From the IMG/VR virus record IMGVR_UViG_3300045952_000066, positions 1-57,687 of that record: 57,687 nt of DNA, one strand, 5' to 3'. The stretch's first letter is position 1; each line of letters opens with the position of its first letter. Below are positions 421-54,252 of the stretch, piece after piece. This stretch comes from a virus (lineage: Duplodnaviria; Caudoviricetes). The position numbers were made by a program, and so were the translations under genes. The notes beneath the pieces are model-generated. The model did not search any database and was not told the origin of the DNA. It was given only the letters and a program-made list of their open reading frames with translations.

Positions 421-1194
421 TTAGAGTGAGATCTGAATCAACGTCGGCGCCGTCTGGAAATTGCGGGCGCCCGACCCATGCACGATGATTGCAATGTCTT
501 TTCTAGGATCATCGGCGCCCGTGGTTCCCGCACAGAGCTTGCAATTCTCGCATGTCGTCTTATGGTCGGCCTCGTCCGACGCCGGACAAATGATCTCAGA
601 ATGGCGCATAGATTCATCAGCCGAACGGACGCGGAAAGTACGCCAACCGCGCGTTTTGGCTTCGATGTAATCGTGGGGATTGTCGCACGACGCCATGAAA
701 TAACGCCTATAGGCGTCATACTCCGCATGTCGCCATTGGTGGGTGTACCCTGTCCACCCGTCGGACACTGTCGCAAGTGCAGACACGATGTGAAGCGGAA
801 TCAAGACAGGTTCGCCATAGGCGCCGAATCGGATCTTACGACCCTGGAAAACTGCCCGGTAACCGTCGGGCGCCAGTGCGGGATACTTCCCAGCCCGATA
901 CGCACGCCATACAGCTAAAGGCGCCTGAACGACGCGGACATAGCATGTCCGTCCGACGTTCCTAGTGGTGCCGTCATCGCCTAATACTTCAATCGTGCCA
1001 CGATGCGGACAGTCAAAACAGACAACGTCATCGGCGCCCGTTTTGGTGGCGGTGACAGGGTCGACATCCCGATTCAAGATCCACAATTGAACCATGTTGC
1101 CTGTTTTGGGATTGTGCGTTTTGATGGTCGCGACAATCACAATGTTGGGTGTCTCAAGTAGCAAGTAGCCCGTCGGGCGTTTTTTATTGGTCAT
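421..1194 (-). CDS. Conserved Cys-rich phage protein (DUF7227-like, possibly a metal/Fe-S enzyme)
   Basis: Motifs NPKTGNMVQ, CxDCPHRG..CYV, RFGAYGEP, GYTHQW, MASCD, CPAS..CxxCxLC, IVHG. Confidence 0.7.
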   Translation of the reverse strand: MTNKKRPTGYLLLETPNIVIVATIKTHNPKTGNMVQLWILNRDVDPVTATKTGADDVVCFDCPHRGTIEVLGDDGTTRNVGRTCYVRVVQAPLAVWRAYRAGKYPALAPDGYRAVFQGRKIRFGAYGEPVLIPLHIVSALATVSDGWTGYTHQWRHAEYDAYRRYFMASCDNPHDYIEAKTRGWRTFRVRSADESMRHSEIICPASDEADHKTTCENCKLCAGTTGADDPRKDIAIIVHGSGARNFQTAPTLIQISL

Positions 1195-1294: not shown

Positions 1295-1627
1295 CTAAGT
1301 TGTTGAAACGCCAGGTCTTAGCTGTTCACGCCTCAAAAGTGGCGTCCGAATCGGGCGCTTCACTCGAGGGTAAATGCCGTGGTTTCAATCGGTTGGACCG
1401 AAACCGCGGGCTAAGTAGCTGATTCTGAAGGCGTTAGCTATCTGCTTGATTCCAGGGCACTTAGTTATCTGCCTGATTCTAAAGGCTTTAGTCAAGTGCT
1501 TTAGAATCAAGGCTTTACCAAGTGCCTGATTCGATTGCACTTACGCAAGTGTCTGATTCGGAAGGAGTTAGCTAAACCGCTGATTCTAAAGGGGTAGAGG
1601 CCATCCCCAATGGAATCAGCGGGTTAC
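1295..1627. repeat. Array of about ten 27-bp degenerate units with an IHF-like core (YAANNNNYTGATT)
   Basis: Units at 1295, 1370 (reverse), 1411, 1438, 1465, 1492 (reverse), 1518, 1545, 1572, 1601 (reverse); frame nTAA-N19-TTAn. Confidence 0.8.
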
Positions 1628-1779: not shown

Positions 1780-1986
1780 TTAGTCGGGCCAGATATAGTC
1801 CGCGCTCTTGACCGTGTAGTTAGCAACCTTCCGTTCCTGGTCGGTGTCGATCAATTCGAGCACGACCTGGACCGGCGGCTTGAGAGCGCACGGTCGCATC
1901 CGCAGGGTCTGGGTAGCAGGCGCAGGCGCGTCGTCGGCCCACATGAAGTGGTAGGGTTTGCCGTCGAGGAAGAACTCACCGATCAT
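1780..1986 (-). CDS. Hypothetical protein (68 aa)
   Basis: MIGEFFLDGKPYHF...; protein-like 3' part of ORF 1780..2205. Confidence 0.6.
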   Translation of the reverse strand: MIGEFFLDGKPYHFMWADDAPAPATQTLRMRPCALKPPVQVVLELIDTDQERKVANYTVKSADYIWPD

Positions 1987-2245
1987 GGCTTGCCGCAGTG
2001 ACGGGCGCCTGGAGGACAGGGGGCGACGACCGATCAGCCGCCGCCCCTGTTGCCCAGCCCCGGCGAAGTCGTGCGGGACCGGGTTCGGCGCGTGATCCCT
2101 CCTCAACGGGAGTTGCTGATGGGATAGGCGCCGAAGCTTGCATCGCGAGTGCCTTGCAGATGGATCGTGTGCGCGGGATGTCCGATGACTTCGGAGTGAG
2201 GGCACTCCCGCGAGGCCCGGTGCGGTTCAAGCGATTGGCCTGATC
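1981..2245 (-). ncRNA. Candidate multi-branched structured RNA or leader
   Basis: At least six nested or adjacent helices; G-U-containing hairpin on the minus strand; upstream TGGTATGAT extended -10. Confidence 0.45.
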
Positions 2246-2250
2246 ATACC

Positions 2251-2286
2251 AAAACAAAAGGCCCGCCAGCATGACGCCAGCGGGCC
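2251..2286 (-). terminator. Intrinsic terminator
   Basis: GGCCCGCTGGC..GCTGGCGGGCC followed by TTTTGTTTT on the minus strand. Confidence 0.75.
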
Positions 2287-9918: not shown

Positions 9919-10070
9919 CGACGGCCTTCTCTTCCTTCGGGCGGCGAGTCCGGAGAGCGAAGCGTCGTGCCCCACTTCGCCCCATAATCTCTCCGGACTC
10001 GCCACAAAACGGCGGGAACCGGCGTCACCTCCCCCGAAGTTAAACCGCCGGTTCCCGCCGGGTTCAATGC

Positions 10071-44500: not shown

Positions 44501-45721
44501 TTTGGCGGTTTCCTTTGCCGCCGCTTTCGCCGCCGTCGCCGCCGCCGCTCTCGCCGCCGCTTCGGTGGCCGCTTTGGTCGCCGTCTCTACCGCCGCCTCT
44601 GCGCTCCGTCTCGCGACCGCCGACGTAGCAGCCGCCGCCGCGCCGCCGAGGCCCAGCGTGCCACGGGCGCCCGCCGCCGCCGCTCCTGCCCCTGCCGCCG
44701 CCGCGCCTGCGCCCGCGCCTTTCAGGAGTCCGCCGATGCTCCTCCAGGCGCCGAAGCCGGTCGTCACGACGGAGATCGCCAGACCCAGCGCGATGATCGC
44801 GCCGGTAAGCCCGCCGATCAGAACGGTGATGTCTTTGATCGGCCCCGGCAGTCGGTCGAAGATGTCGAGAAGCCTCCCGAACATGTTGACCAGACTCGAC
44901 GCGAAGTCGAGGAGCTTGATGAACGACGGCCCCAGCTTCTTGTCGAGGTCGGCGGCGGTATTGATCACCTGATTCTGGAGCCGGTTCGACGCCGCTTCGA
45001 CGGACACCAGCGCGTCCTTCGCCGCCGCGCCGTTGGTCTTCACCGAGAGCATCGCCAGCGCGTACCGGACGAACGCTTCAGGGTCCATCTGCCGCGCCGA
45101 CGATTTCAGTTCGGCCAGCGTCTTGCCGAGGCCCTCCGCTGCTTCCTGCGGGAGGTTCATCTTCACGCTGGCGAAGATCGCCTGGATGCTCTTGGCGGTA
45201 GGGTTGAACGATGCGCCGACCTTGGACAGGGCTTCGGTGAAAGCTTCCATGCTATCGACGCCTTTGATGCCGTATGCGGCGGTGATGTCGAGGACGTACT
45301 GCATGTTCTTGGCGAGATCCTTCGCCGGGATGCCCGCCGCTTGCATCGAGAACGACATTCTGGCGAGTTGGTCTTGGAGCACACCGGCCCGCTCCGCTAG
45401 GGCCTTCAACTCCTCCAACTGATCGCTCAATCCGGCGCGGGAGAACTGGCGCACGATCCGGTTCCACTCCTCGCCCATGCCGATCAGTTGCTGGAAGCCT
45501 CGCGCGACTCCCAGCGCGGCGACGGCGCGGGCCAGCTTCGCCATCTCGTCGGCGGTGTCATGCACCGACACGTTGACCGACTGCATCCCCTTCGCGGCCT
45601 GCTTGGTGGCCTTCTCAGAGGTCGAGCCTACGTTCGCGAGTTTTTGGTTGAGAGCATCGATGTCCCGGCCCGCTTCCTCTCCCTGGAATTGGACCTGGAT
45701 GTAAATGCGATTCGTCGCCAT
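41540..45721 (-). CDS. Tape measure protein
   Basis: 1393 aa, helical and Ala-rich, Gly-zipper segments; follows the chaperones. Confidence 0.9.
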   Translation of the reverse strand: MATNRIYIQVQFQGEEAGRDIDALNQKLANVGSTSEKATKQAAKGMQSVNVSVHDTADEMAKLARAVAALGVARGFQQLIGMGEEWNRIVRQFSRAGLSDQLEELKALAERAGVLQDQLARMSFSMQAAGIPAKDLAKNMQYVLDITAAYGIKGVDSMEAFTEALSKVGASFNPTAKSIQAIFASVKMNLPQEAAEGLGKTLAELKSSARQMDPEAFVRYALAMLSVKTNGAAAKDALVSVEAASNRLQNQVINTAADLDKKLGPSFIKLLDFASSLVNMFGRLLDIFDRLPGPIKDITVLIGGLTGAIIALGLAISVVTTGFGAWRSIGGLLKGAGAGAAAAGAGAAAAGARGTLGLGGAAAAATSAVARRSAEAAVETATKAATEAAARAAAATAAKAAAKETAKAVAKEVATSVAGGLAGEALAGAMARRAAANAAAKEAAKIATEAAANAAATVAAQKVAQTALGKAGGAVAGAGAAAAAGAATGVATEVVAATGVRAALAGLLGLVGGPVGLIAIVVGLLGGAVLQYLSSSRAKAEAQQKAAGAGYGPATPEEIARLKAGLPKVDVEEMKRQVEQAMTVLEEAQVRNRKAGQETISALTSDYEQYFRKVKGNDQAIAIYRKALWLDVNTEVTKREEESRREQAKLNEDIAKAQRQTAIAEMEKLRDHTFAGQRELVRLRTEANVEEMRTNVAAKEEEIKRVGDLQLKGIREAGRKARKSEEQIRQEQQRYADAANADILKLAEFRKNEEKRIRVEGERETNGIILEERKQLMEESIQMELLRINRTATLEGGYLYARRPRTPQERMQNIADITDVERVRIEKTRDAQIAAENERLRVFRNNNATSEASIIEETKRTTERIEGIWLDADTALQVARLQGWSQTNDVIIQQQEEMFGEIKGFIGDMWDALLDRSRSVWQSLGNLMKNTMLGVMKTIVTNSMTAQLAGIFGGFKTQFPRGPWRGPWFPGMGQTAPTIYGSAQTDVTYATQESRNREVVGRDVDAIVTDAAREAWSARSGSAADVAGVGATGATGGGGVRGQWSQSVQAMRESLNIGKPVQVRDPVTGAISTKPWAQLTGRQKLGAMLNSPGMGAMAAAVGTPMFMAGALSSKRGVRAGLMGIAGGALAGYGLGKMVGHPVAGAVAGAGLGLFAAGYKRGGVTGAAMSIGGGALAGAGIGFMIGAMFGPMGALIGAGVGLIAGAAAGGIATLVRHFRKPKEEQVRRLIRNAYGVDIVDRSIREQVVQIADQRFGGDLRMAVFSPEVQEMVRLYALNTNQGVGGMPRQMYGATFAQSAAGGLQLQPVYSNGRMVANPYVGTTTTQVANALQGPNPMFLQLNPQQATSLFSGQVVQVLGNNPGAVGAANTTAARSGQGRAAQTGALLEPSTVMA

Positions 45722-52483: not shown

Positions 52484-54252
52484 TATGCGTCCTCCTCCTC
52501 TTTGCTCTCGTCGTCTTCGTCGTCGTCCACGTCGTCGGACTCCTCGTCGGGCGTCTCCTCCTCTTCCTCGTCGTCCTCTTCCTCTTCCTCGTCGGGCTTC
52601 TCCTGCGGCGGCGTTCCGGCCATCGGCGCGGGCATGAGATTCAACTGGCGCATCCGCTCCAGTTCCAAGGCCCGCTGATCGAGAACCTCAACCCAGTCGA
52701 GGCCCTGTTCGGCGCATTCCATCTCAAGCGTCGAGATCATGTTGGTCATCCTTATCTGCGCGGCGTTCGCCTCTTTGACGGCGTCGGTGTAGCCGCGTCC
52801 CGGCCCCAGCCATTTGCACTTGAGATAGAGCGGCATCAACTCGTAGAAGTCGGGGGCTTCGATCAGGCCAGCGTTGACGACCTCCTCCAGCCAGAGCTTG
52901 TAGACCGGCGAGGCCCAATACGTTCCCAGCCACTGGCGCCGCGCCAGGAAGAATCGCCACGCCTCATTCAACGCGGCGCGCGCCGACGAATAGTTGGTTT
53001 TCGAGAAATCCTTGTAGACCAACTCATACGGCAGGCCCAGCGCGGCGCCGATCTGTCGCGAGATCGACTCGACAAACGCCGGGTATGTGTTCGGTGGCCG
53101 GTTCGGCGTGTACGGCGTGAGCTTGTCGCCGGGATACAAGGGGATAAAAGTGCCCCCTTCCATCTGCGGTCGGTACTCGCCTTTCGAGGCCAAATAGGCG
53201 TTCGGATCGCCGCCCATCAACTCCGCGATGCCCGCAGGGTCCATCGGCGTCTCGATCACGCCCGCGACCAGCGAGTTCACGATGGCCGACTGTAGCTCCG
53301 TCCGCTGGTAACTATCCAACATGCGGAACTGCTCGATGATCGGCGTGAGCACCGGCTTCCCGCGCGACTGATCCACGCGATCCTTCGAGAAGATATGCAG
53401 CACCCGCTTGCGGCCCCAGTCGGTTTCCGCCGGGATGCGCTCCCACTCGACAATTCCGCGATTCGCGAACAGACCTCCAGCGGTGAGCGTCAGATACCAG
53501 ATCTCCAGACCGCTCCAGGTCGGGTTCTTCAGGACGTGGTACGCGAGAGGCTTGCCGTAGTCATCGAACTCGATGCCGCCGCGCAGGTTCAGGGTGCTCT
53601 GCTCGAAATTGGGGTTGCACAAGCGGTCGGTGTCGACCAGTTGCACGCACGTCTTGAACGGCGTGTCCGGTCGATCTAACCAGAGCGGCAACGCGAGGGC
53701 CTCGCCGTTCTGGAGCGAGGACCGGAACACCAACTGCGTCATCTGCGCGAACGTCATCTGACCGGCGGCGTCACACGCCATTGTGTTCGCCCACGTCGCC
53801 CAGAGGCTCTCGACGCCTCGCGCCCACTCTTCCGCCCACTGGATGTCCCGCCCCAGAGCGCGGTAATCCGGCATCGCGGCGAGGCGCAGGCCCGTGCCGA
53901 CCGTGTTATCGGTGAGCGTCTGGAACGTCCCGCTGGCGATGCCGTTGTTGCGGTCGAGGTCCCGGCTCCGCGCGATCAGCAGATCCTGCTCTGGCAGAAG
54001 CTCCACGTCGGCGGGCGCCCGCTCCGGTTGCCAGTTGGTCAGTTGCTTCCGGGTACGGCTGGCCCCGGCGTATGCGGTGTCGCGGTAGCGGGCTAGCTGG
54101 GCGCCGAAGCGAATCCCCGGCGCGGAAGGAGGATTCGTCCAGCGTCCCAGGAGCCGCGCCAGTAGACCATGCCTTGGAGCTACTGGCGCGGCGGTCGTCG
54201 CGACGGCCCGACGAGGTTCGCGACGATTCTGCAAGGTCGGTGTCATGGGCAC
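52483..54252 (-). CDS. Portal protein, lambda family
   Basis: RSRDLDRNN, QSRGKP, DFSKTNYSSARAAL. Confidence 0.95.
   Translation of the reverse strand: MPMTPTLQNRREPRRAVATTAAPVAPRHGLLARLLGRWTNPPSAPGIRFGAQLARYRDTAYAGASRTRKQLTNWQPERAPADVELLPEQDLLIARSRDLDRNNGIASGTFQTLTDNTVGTGLRLAAMPDYRALGRDIQWAEEWARGVESLWATWANTMACDAAGQMTFAQMTQLVFRSSLQNGEALALPLWLDRPDTPFKTCVQLVDTDRLCNPNFEQSTLNLRGGIEFDDYGKPLAYHVLKNPTWSGLEIWYLTLTAGGLFANRGIVEWERIPAETDWGRKRVLHIFSKDRVDQSRGKPVLTPIIEQFRMLDSYQRTELQSAIVNSLVAGVIETPMDPAGIAELMGGDPNAYLASKGEYRPQMEGGTFIPLYPGDKLTPYTPNRPPNTYPAFVESISRQIGAALGLPYELVYKDFSKTNYSSARAALNEAWRFFLARRQWLGTYWASPVYKLWLEEVVNAGLIEAPDFYELMPLYLKCKWLGPGRGYTDAVKEANAAQIRMTNMISTLEMECAEQGLDWVEVLDQRALELERMRQLNLMPAPMAGTPPQEKPDEEEEEDDEEEEETPDEESDDVDDDEDDESKEEEDA

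What the first reader, a model, noticed from the sequence alone, without database searches (positions are those of the whole stretch)
1981..2245. Candidate ~260-nt structured RNA with a switchable pairing
Seen on the minus strand: CCGCA/TGCGG closing stem, ACCGGG/CCCGGT, GAGTGCC/GGCACTC, TCCGA/TCGGA, TTCGGCGC/GCGCCGAA with inner ATCCC/GGGAT and CAAC/GTTG, and ACAGGGGCGGCGGC/GTCGTCGCCCCCTGT with two G-U pairs. CGAAGTC (about 2187-2193) can alternatively pair with GACTTCG (2064-2070). It lies just after a terminator and an extended -10 and ends at the start of a 68-aa gene. ORFs over it look non-protein-like, and I cannot assign it to a known family.
Basis: partly seen in the sequence, partly recalled or inferred. 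Interest (0 to 1): 0.7.

Follow-up and report, generated by a model that had tools for sequence, protein, structure and literature searches.

The report
Hairpin-rich leader of small phage gene
This is most likely a long, unusually well-folded untranslated leader in front of a small conserved gene of a soil phage; it fits no known RNA family, and the single large switchable fold that was proposed for it is not supported.

Summary
The window is a complete 57.7-kb phage record. The stated landmarks hold on the minus strand. An intrinsic terminator lies at 2286-2260. TGG-TATGAT follows at 2251-2243. About 250 nt then run to the ATG at 1986 of a real 68-aa gene.

All eight complementary segment pairs exist. 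Six are in the thermodynamic optimum. Two (ACCGGG/CCCGGT, GAGTGCC/GGCACTC) have pair probability of 0.03 or less.

The leader (1987-2236) folds better than shuffles (z -3.95, 0 of 200). It ranks 3rd of 458 genome windows, and only on the transcribed strand. By GC-adjusted energy it is ordinary: 10.5% of windows do as well.

Rfam gives nothing. No frame over the leader looks coding.

One related phage, seen only through read laying, keeps the promoter-proximal part and the twin 3' hairpins. It replaces the middle 70 nt. It also deletes the 3' arms of the long-range closing stems. A third syntenic phage has an unrelated leader of similar length.

Covariation could not be tested.

Verdict: probably a cis-acting structured 5' UTR, a lineage-restricted orphan of modest interest.

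The parts
2260..2286 (-). Intrinsic terminator that ends the upstream operon (74-aa gene 2336-2560): 12-pair stem followed by TTTTGTTTTG
   Evidence: scan; sequence
2243..2251 (-). Extended -10 promoter element TGG-TATGAT. The transcription start at about 2236/2235 is inferred. The syntenic phage L002 has GGTATCATC preceded by TTGCAG at 18 nt
   Evidence: read by eye. The promoter scan, which requires a -35 element, found none
1987..2236 (-). About 250 nt of untranslated leader for the 68-aa gene. MFE -121.3 kcal/mol, z -3.95
   Evidence: rank 3 of 458; plus strand z -1.04
2172..2212 (-). Promoter-proximal hairpin CGCGGGA/TCCCGCG enclosing TCCGA-AGTCA-TCGGA (2195-2181). It lies in the 5' block that is conserved in the relative
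   Evidence: z -2.38; pair probabilities 0.87 and 0.81
2084..2135 (-). Three-tier hairpin TTCGGCGC/GCGCCGAA, ATCCC/GGGAT, CAAC/GTTG. Its 5' arm lies in the 70 nt (2093-2162) that the relative replaces with 65 unalignable letters
   Evidence: (z -5.15, boundaries chosen after the fact)
2053..2083 (-). Hairpin CCCGGTCCCG/CGGGGCTGGG with GACTTCG in its loop
   Evidence: z -2.97; pair probability 0.97
2016..2050 (-). Strongest hairpin (15 pairs, two of them G-U, loop TGATCGG region). The 52-nt window 2008-2059 folds at -33.3 kcal/mol on the minus strand and -24.3 on the plus. Positions 2019-2061 are identical in the relative except for one inserted base in the loop
   Evidence: (z -4.70)
1987..2015 (-). 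Variable linker to the start codon, with no clear Shine-Dalgarno sequence. It holds the 3' arms of the long-range stems. In the relative, 11 of these 29 positions are left out (places 1995, 2000, 2010) and 3 are substituted (1991, 2006, 2008)
1780..1986 (-). 68-aa gene (p68 family). It is a real gene and the start at this ATG is confirmed. The predicted fold is a five-strand all-beta structure of unknown function

Best explanation
The stretch is the long 5' untranslated leader of a separate transcription unit. It is not a free-standing RNA gene and not one closed 260-nt domain.

Transcription starts at an extended -10 promoter that abuts the terminator of the upstream operon. It runs through about 250 nt holding four GC-rich hairpins, then the 68-aa gene, an array of short repeats and the 257-aa phrog_2554 gene. 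The next terminator is at 213-186.

The functional core is probably the promoter-proximal hairpin (2212-2172) and the twin hairpins (2083-2016). The twin hairpins end about 30 nt before a start codon without a clear Shine-Dalgarno sequence.

The most likely action is in cis on the same mRNA, setting how much p68 is made. One route is stabilising the transcript; another is controlling ribosome access to a weak start site.

Shown: the landmarks, the non-coding nature, the strand-specific excess of structure, and block-wise conservation in one relative. Inferred: the transcription start, co-transcription with p68, and the regulatory effect itself.
For: Landmarks are.

Not coding:
- A full HMMER search with the 141-aa upstream-extended frame found 1 protein among 1.84 billion. 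It matches only residues 74-133 of the query and itself begins MIGEF.
- The relative's indels between 2205 and 1987 sum to -17 bases, which is not a multiple of 3.
- The other two open frames have low third-position GC.

Structure:
- z -3.95, with 0 of 200 shuffles as good.
- z -3.78 without the linker.
- Rank 3 of 458 genome windows, plus strand -1.48.
- Window 2008-2059 is at the 0.1 percentile of 52-nt windows on the minus strand, and 9 kcal/mol weaker on the plus strand.

Conservation: DNA contigs of runs X12 and X9 carry a relative.
- It aligns to 1933-2092 (15 substitutions, 14 gap letters) and to 2163-2272 (8 substitutions, 2 gap letters).
- Positions 2019-2061 are unchanged except for one loop insertion.
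- Its contigs skip the flanks, 1431 to 1933 and 2252 to 2939, at the 80% likeness threshold.
- Its p68 is only 58% identical in protein.

Position: the syntenic phage L002 also has a terminator, a promoter-like element and a leader of about 225 nt before its p68 homologue.

Transcription: one RNA-library contig (X14, 169 nt, no differences) spans 1944-2112, across the twin hairpins and the start codon. The tool warns that DNA can be present in such libraries.
Against: - No covariation evidence exists.
- The only relative shows no visible compensatory change.
- That relative loses the long-range stems: 3' arms deleted at 1995-1998 and 2000-2003, substitutions at 1991, 2006, 2008 and 2018, with the 5' arms kept.
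- The L002 leader is unrelated in sequence and not unusually stable (z -0.40, 64 of 200 shuffles as good). A conserved RNA fold is therefore not a family-wide feature.
- Adjusted for GC against native windows, the fold is ordinary.
- The grid was anchored on the target, which favours it.
- High conservation in one relative could reflect recent recombination, or DNA-level promoter and operator sites.
- The promoter has no recognisable -35 element, and the scan tool called no promoter.
Confidence: 0.5

Rival explanations
1. There is no RNA-level function. The stretch is a GC-rich spacer whose inverted repeats are chance, or are DNA sites (promoter, operators for dimeric binding proteins) between two operons. 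Its similarity to the relative reflects recent recombination or DNA-level constraint.
For: - The GC-adjusted energy is ordinary: 10.5% of 1916 windows are as stable.
- Strong hairpins are common, 171 and 156 per strand.
- 12 of 458 windows reach z -3 or below.
- TCCGA-AGTCA-TCGGA (2195-2181) is a 5-5-5 palindrome of operator type just downstream of the promoter.
- The conserved 5' block includes the promoter.
- The L002 leader is unrelated and unstructured.
- The long-range stems are not kept in the relative.
Against: - The excess of structure is strand-specific (z -3.95 or -4.17 against -1.04 or -1.48). Both imperfections of the strongest hairpin are G-U on the transcribed strand. A double-stranded DNA site would not prefer one strand.
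- The identical block 2019-2061 lies 175-215 nt downstream of the promoter, far for an operator.
Confidence: 0.3
2. It is a new cis-acting phage riboregulator with a specific mechanism. One form: the twin hairpins (2083-2016, 68 nt) modify RNA polymerase, as the put RNA of HK022 does. Another form: an immunity RNA processed from the leader acts by loop-to-target pairing, as P1 c4 and P4 CI do. The pairing would be GACTTCG (2070-2064) with CGAAGTC (2193-2187).
For: - Two adjacent stable hairpins separated by 2 nt, 68 nt in all, z -3.55, sit in the leader of an operon.
- Their core is unchanged in the relative.
- The 7-nt complementarity lies between a loop and a small upstream hairpin.
- RNA-only antitermination elements in mobile-element leaders are known. 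Passages of PMC11658703 name put, EAR and canT.
Against: - No terminator-like site lies between the leader and 213-186(-), so nothing needs to be read through.
- Rfam models, including the C4 clan, give no hit at E up to 10.
- The 7-nt match is of chance size.
- In the relative, a base is inserted into the loop of the last hairpin.
- No sign of a processed small RNA could be obtained from contig data.
Confidence: 0.12
3. The stretch encodes protein, either as an N-terminal extension of p68 from GTG 2205 or as one of the other open frames (108 aa, minus strand; 81 aa, plus strand).
For: - All three frames are open.
- GC by codon phase between 2140 and 1990 resembles the p68 frame: 0.77-0.80, 0.47-0.63, 0.80-0.83.
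- A six-frame comparison with the L002 leader gave one weak match, E 0.003, 46 residues.
Against: - HMMER against 1.84 billion representatives matched only the p68 part.
- All five full-length family members start at M/V-(I/T)-G-E.
- The relative's indels are not in frame.
- The weak match pairs the p68 frame with a frame of L002 that is not its gene's frame. It is Arg/Pro/Ala-rich, so it looks compositional.
Confidence: 0.03

Closest known systems
Structured 5' untranslated leaders of bacterial and phage mRNAs that set stability or translation (general class; from my own knowledge, not looked up)
   Same: It lies between a promoter and a start codon on the coding strand. It holds several stable hairpins. 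The start site is weak. Everything about it points to action in cis.
   Different: No ligand, protein partner or effect is known here. It matches none of the 4227 Rfam models.
HK022 put RNA and other RNA-only processive antiterminators (EAR, Tn916 canT). Passages of PMC11658703 were read. The two-stem-loop anatomy of put is recalled, not looked up
   Same: A nascent leader RNA just downstream of a promoter in a mobile element. Two adjacent stem-loops of about 68 nt (2083-2016). canT is likewise a long leader with many stem-loops.
   Different: No downstream terminator to bypass was found within the unit. No sequence or model comparison with put was possible. The host polymerase is unknown.
P1/P7 c4 and P4 CI immunity RNAs (Rfam C4 clan; mechanism recalled, not looked up)
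   Same: A leader-embedded hairpin whose loop is complementary to another site in the same transcript, upstream of a small gene.
   Different: No hit to the C4 models at E up to 10. There is only one 7-nt complementarity. No second target sits at the ribosome-binding site. No icd/ant-type genes lie downstream.
CcsR1 (RF02791), the best Rfam near-match
   Same: Two consecutive GC-rich hairpins align to 2015-2089.
   Different: 16.1 bits against a gathering score of 65.3, E 0.54. The defining CCUCCUCCC loop motif is absent from the window's hairpin.

Membership tests
Any Rfam 15 family (4227 models) | Covariance-model score at or above the family's gathering score | tested here: not met
   0 matches in the whole window; 4 matches at E up to 10 in 1600-2700, best E 0.54, all at 15.5-16.9 bits against gathering scores of 49.5-85.
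C4 / CI-type phage immunity RNA | Match to the C4 clan models | tested here: not met
   One search lists no C4 clan hit in the window at E up to 10.
C4 / CI-type phage immunity RNA | Two loop segments complementary to targets both upstream and at the ribosome-binding site of the downstream gene | tested here: not met
   Only one 7-nt pair exists (2070-2064 with 2193-2187). Read by eye in the sequence, there is no complement at the p68 start.
put-like processive antiterminator RNA | Two adjacent stem-loops in nascent RNA soon after the promoter | tested here: inconclusive
   Twin hairpins lie at 2083-2016, but they start about 150 nt after the inferred transcription start. The anatomy of put is recalled, not checked.
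put-like processive antiterminator RNA | Terminators downstream in the same operon that are read through | tested here: not met
   there is no minus-strand terminator-like site between 2260 and 213. The consensus scan covers only canonical intrinsic terminators.
put-like processive antiterminator RNA | Direct action on RNA polymerase | not testable with these tools
   This needs in vitro transcription.
Transcription attenuator / riboswitch expression platform | A leader hairpin followed by a U-tract (intrinsic terminator) with a competing antiterminator | tested here: not met
   Searches find no terminator-like site inside 1987-2236. No leader hairpin is followed by a T-run.
Protein-coding gene | Homologues at protein level, a preserved frame, and codon-position GC bias | tested here: not met
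   the hit covers the p68 part only; indels sum to -17; only the p68 frame shows some bias.
Structured cis-acting 5' UTR (generic kind) | Non-coding, on the coding strand between promoter and start, and more stable than expected | tested here: met
   The promoter and transcription start are inferred, not mapped.
Structured cis-acting 5' UTR (generic kind) | Structure conserved through compensatory changes | tested here: inconclusive
   Only one relative was seen, and only as a list of differences. Stem cores are unchanged, so they carry no information. The long-range stems are lost. Differences within about 30 nt of the ends of aligned pieces are not listed.

The most novel reading that the evidence does not exclude
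The twin hairpins, together with the promoter-proximal hairpin, form a previously undescribed phage leader riboregulator. It would either be processed into a small immunity-type RNA or act on the transcribing polymerase or ribosome. It would control a unit (p68, repeat array, phrog_2554 gene) that sits at the genome end of this phage lineage.
Probability: 0.12. Interest if true: 0.55.

Novelty: new member of a known kind. Interest (0 to 1): 0.32.

Why it matters
If the leader does regulate p68, it marks an autonomously transcribed end-of-genome module in a group of soil phages. The module comprises a small all-beta protein with no known fold relative, a repeat array and the widespread phrog_2554/DUF7227 gene. 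No part of it has a known function, so the leader would give an experimental handle on the module.

As it stands this is an orphan. The sequence is seen in this phage and one close relative only. It answers no open question.

Tried and rejected
Homologue hunting for the leader, all negative:
- The phages collection with 901 nt, distant mode: no match.
- Exact window stretches in viral contigs: 0 and 0.
- A 22-mer in metagenome contigs: 2 loci, both only the 22-mer itself.
- A 20-mer in genome contigs: 13 loci, all matching over 20-24 nt only.
- blastn, nhmmer and tblastn against 82 loci around relatives of the neighbouring genes. Only two blastn hits came up, both in the repeat array of L008. 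nhmmer found nothing. The best tblastn hit for p68 had E 0.24.
- 340 nt against the whole records of 50 related phages. 15 records had matches at E up to 1. The best was E 0.005, and all were 14-41 nt, which is noise. Loci L053-L083 were not searched in this way.
- Earlier notes of this scan: no look-alike stretch.

Loci from protein queries:
- p68 in viral contigs: 7 pattern matches, none a relative.
- The p68 alignments A1 and A3: only the L002 record.
- The 74-aa neighbour gave L002 and L003. L003 is not syntenic downstream.
- Of the 80 phrog_2554 loci, I inspected the upstream regions of 7 (L004-L010). Only L008, which is the same record as L002, is syntenic.

The L002 leader:
- It shares no k-mer of 9 or more with the window's leader.
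- MAFFT did not align the promoters.
- It has no Rfam hit near any threshold.

p68 function:
- Pfam and PHROGs gave nothing.
- Foldseek against PDB: best E 0.51.
- VIA-align wide: best Z 5.6, below the tool's stated noise level of 7-8.
- ESM Atlas: best score 0.76, below the lead level.

Read laying:
- RNA-library contigs of this phage lie at 1227-1377, 1597-1750, 1759-1909 (X13) and 1944-2112 (X14). None lies at 2113-2938.
I draw no expression boundary from them.

Ideas rejected:
- The direct repeat TGATCGGT, in the loop of the last hairpin and across the start codon, as a protein site or kissing pair. It is of chance size, and the relative inserts a base in the loop copy.
- A boxA/boxB (nut) reading. 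CGCTTGAA at 2233-2226 and the 5-nt-loop hairpin at 2195-2181 resemble them only loosely, from memory, and the spacing is wrong.
- The GGGCTGGGC unit of the terminal repeats also occurs once in the leader (2060-2052). It is a 9-mer, so chance.

Papers:
- PMC4496710: passages only. It does not mention put.
- PMC11658703: passages only.
- The other papers: listing only.
- Supplements are closed. No claim here rests on them.

Full report
WHAT THE WINDOW IS. The window is a whole IMG/VR virus record of 57,687 bases, rated 100% complete, with 63.7% GC. Near-identical DNA occurs in soil metagenome runs. The finding lies about 2 kb from the left end of the record, among genes read on the minus strand.

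THE OBSERVATION. Reading the minus strand, the features come in this order:
- The 74-aa gene 2560-2336.
- A canonical intrinsic terminator at 2286-2260, with 12 pairs followed by TTTTGTTTTG.
- Directly abutting it, TGG-TATGAT at 2251-2243, an extended -10 element.
- About 250 nt without a convincing gene.
- ATG at 1986 of a 68-aa ORF.

So are CGAAGTC (2193-2187) and GACTTCG (2070-2064).

The minimum-energy fold of 1981-2245 is -123.0 kcal/mol. It contains six of the eight pairs, with pair probabilities of 0.64-0.98. ACCGGG/CCCGGT (0.00) and GAGTGCC/GGCACTC (0.03) lose to CCCGGTCCCG/CGGGGCTGGG (0.97) and CGCGGGA/TCCCGCG (0.87). It reaches -106.8, which is about the shuffle mean of -105.35. The outermost helix of the fold uses 2245-2241, which is part of the -10 element and so probably not RNA.

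IS IT MORE THAN CHANCE? Against dinucleotide-preserving shuffles:
- 1981-2245: z -3.11, 0 of 200 shuffles as good.
- The leader proper, 1987-2236: z -3.95, 0 of 200.
- 2013-2236, without the linker: z -3.78, 0 of 200.
- The plus strand of the same DNA: z -1.04, 22 of 200.

To calibrate, 36 random windows of this genome gave a mean z of -0.08 with sd 1.19. One of the 36 reached -3.1 or below.

A full tiling used 229 positions on both strands, 250 nt per window and 25 shuffles each. It gave mean -0.28, sd 1.24, and 12 of 458 windows at or below -3. The leader scored -4.17, rank 3 of 458. Its plus strand scored -1.48. The grid was anchored on the leader, which favours it.

Two controls speak against it.
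- Regressing the energy of 1916 native windows on GC, the stretch is only 1.18 sd below expectation. 10.5% of windows do as well.
- Strong local hairpins are commonplace. There are 171 (minus) and 156 (plus) non-overlapping 52-nt windows at -24 kcal/mol or better.

Within that scan, 2008-2059 on the minus strand (-33.3) lies beyond the 0.1 percentile (-31.7). It is 9 kcal/mol weaker on the plus strand. This is because both imperfections of the hairpin are G-U on the transcribed strand.

Single hairpins score z -2.4 to -5.2, but their boundaries were chosen after seeing the fold.

My reading is that there is a real, strand-specific excess of local structure. It is strong by the standard test and unremarkable by raw GC-adjusted energy.

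NOT A KNOWN RNA, NOT CODING. Rfam gives 0 matches at gathering scores in the whole window. In permissive mode it gives only four matches of 15.5-16.9 bits, best E 0.54. No tRNA or tmRNA was found.

Three frames are open over the stretch. The frame of the 68-aa gene keeps a gene-like GC phase pattern up to about 2140. So I searched the 141-aa extended frame against 1.84 billion representatives with HMMER. There was one hit, P0002 (65 aa, 58% identity). It covers only query residues 74-133, and it begins MIGEF itself.

With the L002 ORF and two further metagenomic proteins, the family has five full-length members and one 36-aa fragment. All five full-length members start at M/V-(I/T)-G-E. P0002 links the two subgroups at 35-44% identity over 91% of its length. 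A direct BLASTP of the window protein against the L002 ORF found nothing.

So the 68-aa gene and its ATG are real, and nothing upstream is conserved as protein. AlphaFold gives a confident five-strand all-beta fold (pLDDT 91.3). It has no convincing structural relative and no Pfam or PHROG family.

COMPARATIVE EVIDENCE. No DNA homologue of the leader could be fetched from any collection.

The only view of a relative is through read laying. Contigs of two DNA runs (X12, 21,273 nt, depth 30.5; X9, 2,728 nt) align as follows:
- To 1933-2092, with 15 substitutions and 14 gap letters.
- Then 65 letters in place of 2093-2162.
- Then to 2163-2272, with 8 substitutions and 2 gap letters.

At the 80% threshold the same contigs skip from 1431 to 1933 and from 2252 to 2939. 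The predicted changes in the first codons (Phe6 to Tyr, Asp8 to Ala) match P0002, so this relative is the P0002 phage.

Three things follow.
(i) The leader's two outer blocks are better conserved than the coding sequence that follows, which is 58% identical in protein. That argues for constraint, or for a recent exchange.
(ii) Positions 2019-2061 are unchanged except for one base inserted in the apical loop. This block is the core of the strongest hairpin plus the 3' arm of its neighbour. By contrast, 18 of the 32 positions 1987-2018 are deleted or substituted.
(iii) The long-range closure is not kept. The 3' arms TGCGG (1997-1993) and GCCCG (2006-2002) are hit by the deletions listed at 1995 and 2000 and by the substitution at 2006. 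CAAGC is hit by the substitution at 1991. The 5' arms (2232-2215) stay, with one inserted base behind 2220.

No compensatory change is visible. However, the tool does not list differences within about 30 nt of the ends of aligned pieces. Both halves of the proposed switch, and the partner of the changed 2211, lie in those zones. The 65 replaced letters were not shown either.

A more distant syntenic phage (L002/L008, 79% identity in the 74-aa neighbour) has the same layout. It runs terminator, TTGCAG-18-TATCAT, about 225 nt of leader, a p68 homologue, a repeat region and a phrog_2554 gene. But its leader shares no k-mer of 9 or more with the window's. It also folds no better than shuffles (z -0.40). 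A long leader is therefore conserved in position. Its sequence and fold are not conserved across the family.

MECHANISM. The next minus-strand terminator after 2260 is at 213-186. So the unit probably comprises the leader, p68, the repeat array (about 1295-1627) and the 257-aa phrog_2554/DUF7227 gene.

None of the leader hairpins is followed by a U-tract, so they are not attenuators. There is nothing downstream to antiterminate. The start codon has no clear Shine-Dalgarno sequence, whereas L002 has GGAG.

The best-supported reading is a cis-acting structured 5' UTR that tunes stability or translation of the p68 message (confidence 0.5). The promoter start and the effect are inferred. An RNA-library contig spans the twin hairpins and the start codon (1944-2112). 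This is compatible with co-transcription, but the library may contain DNA.

Rivals:
- No RNA-level function, meaning chance structure plus DNA-level sites or recent recombination (0.3).
- A specific new riboregulator of put-like or c4/CI-like logic (0.12).
- Coding (0.03).

COMPARISON AND NOVELTY. It works most like an ordinary structured mRNA leader. It is not a member of any Rfam family (tested). It lacks the defining context of put-type antiterminators, because no downstream terminator was found. It also lacks that of c4/CI immunity RNAs: no model hit, and only one short complementarity. It is an orphan seen in this phage and one close relative. I rate it a new member of a known kind, with interest 0.32.

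Noticed in passing
window 1295-1627 (-) and L002 4490-4620: The array of short repeats downstream of p68 (units containing GAATCAG / CTGATTC next to TAAAG) shares its unit with the syntenic phage L002. The only blastn similarity between the two phages in this 1.1-kb region lies here: 84-85% over 37-39 nt against L008. So the repeats are conserved although the leader is not. They look like binding sites for a phage protein.
   Followed up: partly
window 421-1194 (-): The 257-aa phrog_2554 / DUF7227 protein has relatives in 487 of 491 candidate IMG/VR stretches and in 151 cultured-phage records (hosts include Mycobacterium, Klebsiella, Gordonia, Caulobacter, Ruegeria). In 23 of the 25 listed records it sits within about 3 kb of a record end (the other two lie 3.6 and 9.5 kb from one), as it does here. 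Its function is unknown.
   Followed up: partly
window 1780-1986 (-): The p68 family is tiny: six clusters among 5.8 billion proteins. It folds with high confidence (pLDDT 91.3) into a five-strand all-beta domain. No PDB relative scores above noise.
   Followed up: yes
L002 4028-4052: The unrelated leader of the syntenic phage carries CCTCCTC-ACCTCCTCCC, an exposed anti-Shine-Dalgarno-like pyrimidine run. It lies upstream of a gene that has a GGAG ribosome site. That leader might sequester its own ribosome site. Rfam gave no hit.
   Followed up: partly
window 44737-44986 (-), 53987-54236 (-), 10010-10061 (-): Other stretches are as structured as the finding, or more so. Two 250-nt windows score z -4.62 and -4.58, and one 52-nt hairpin reaches -40.2 kcal/mol, the strongest in the genome.
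   Followed up: no
window 2036-2029 and 1985-1978 (-): TGATCGGT occurs twice, once in the apical loop of the strongest hairpin and once across the p68 start codon. L002 has GATCGGG at its start and once in its leader. This is probably chance plus the conserved M-I-G-E codons.
   Followed up: partly
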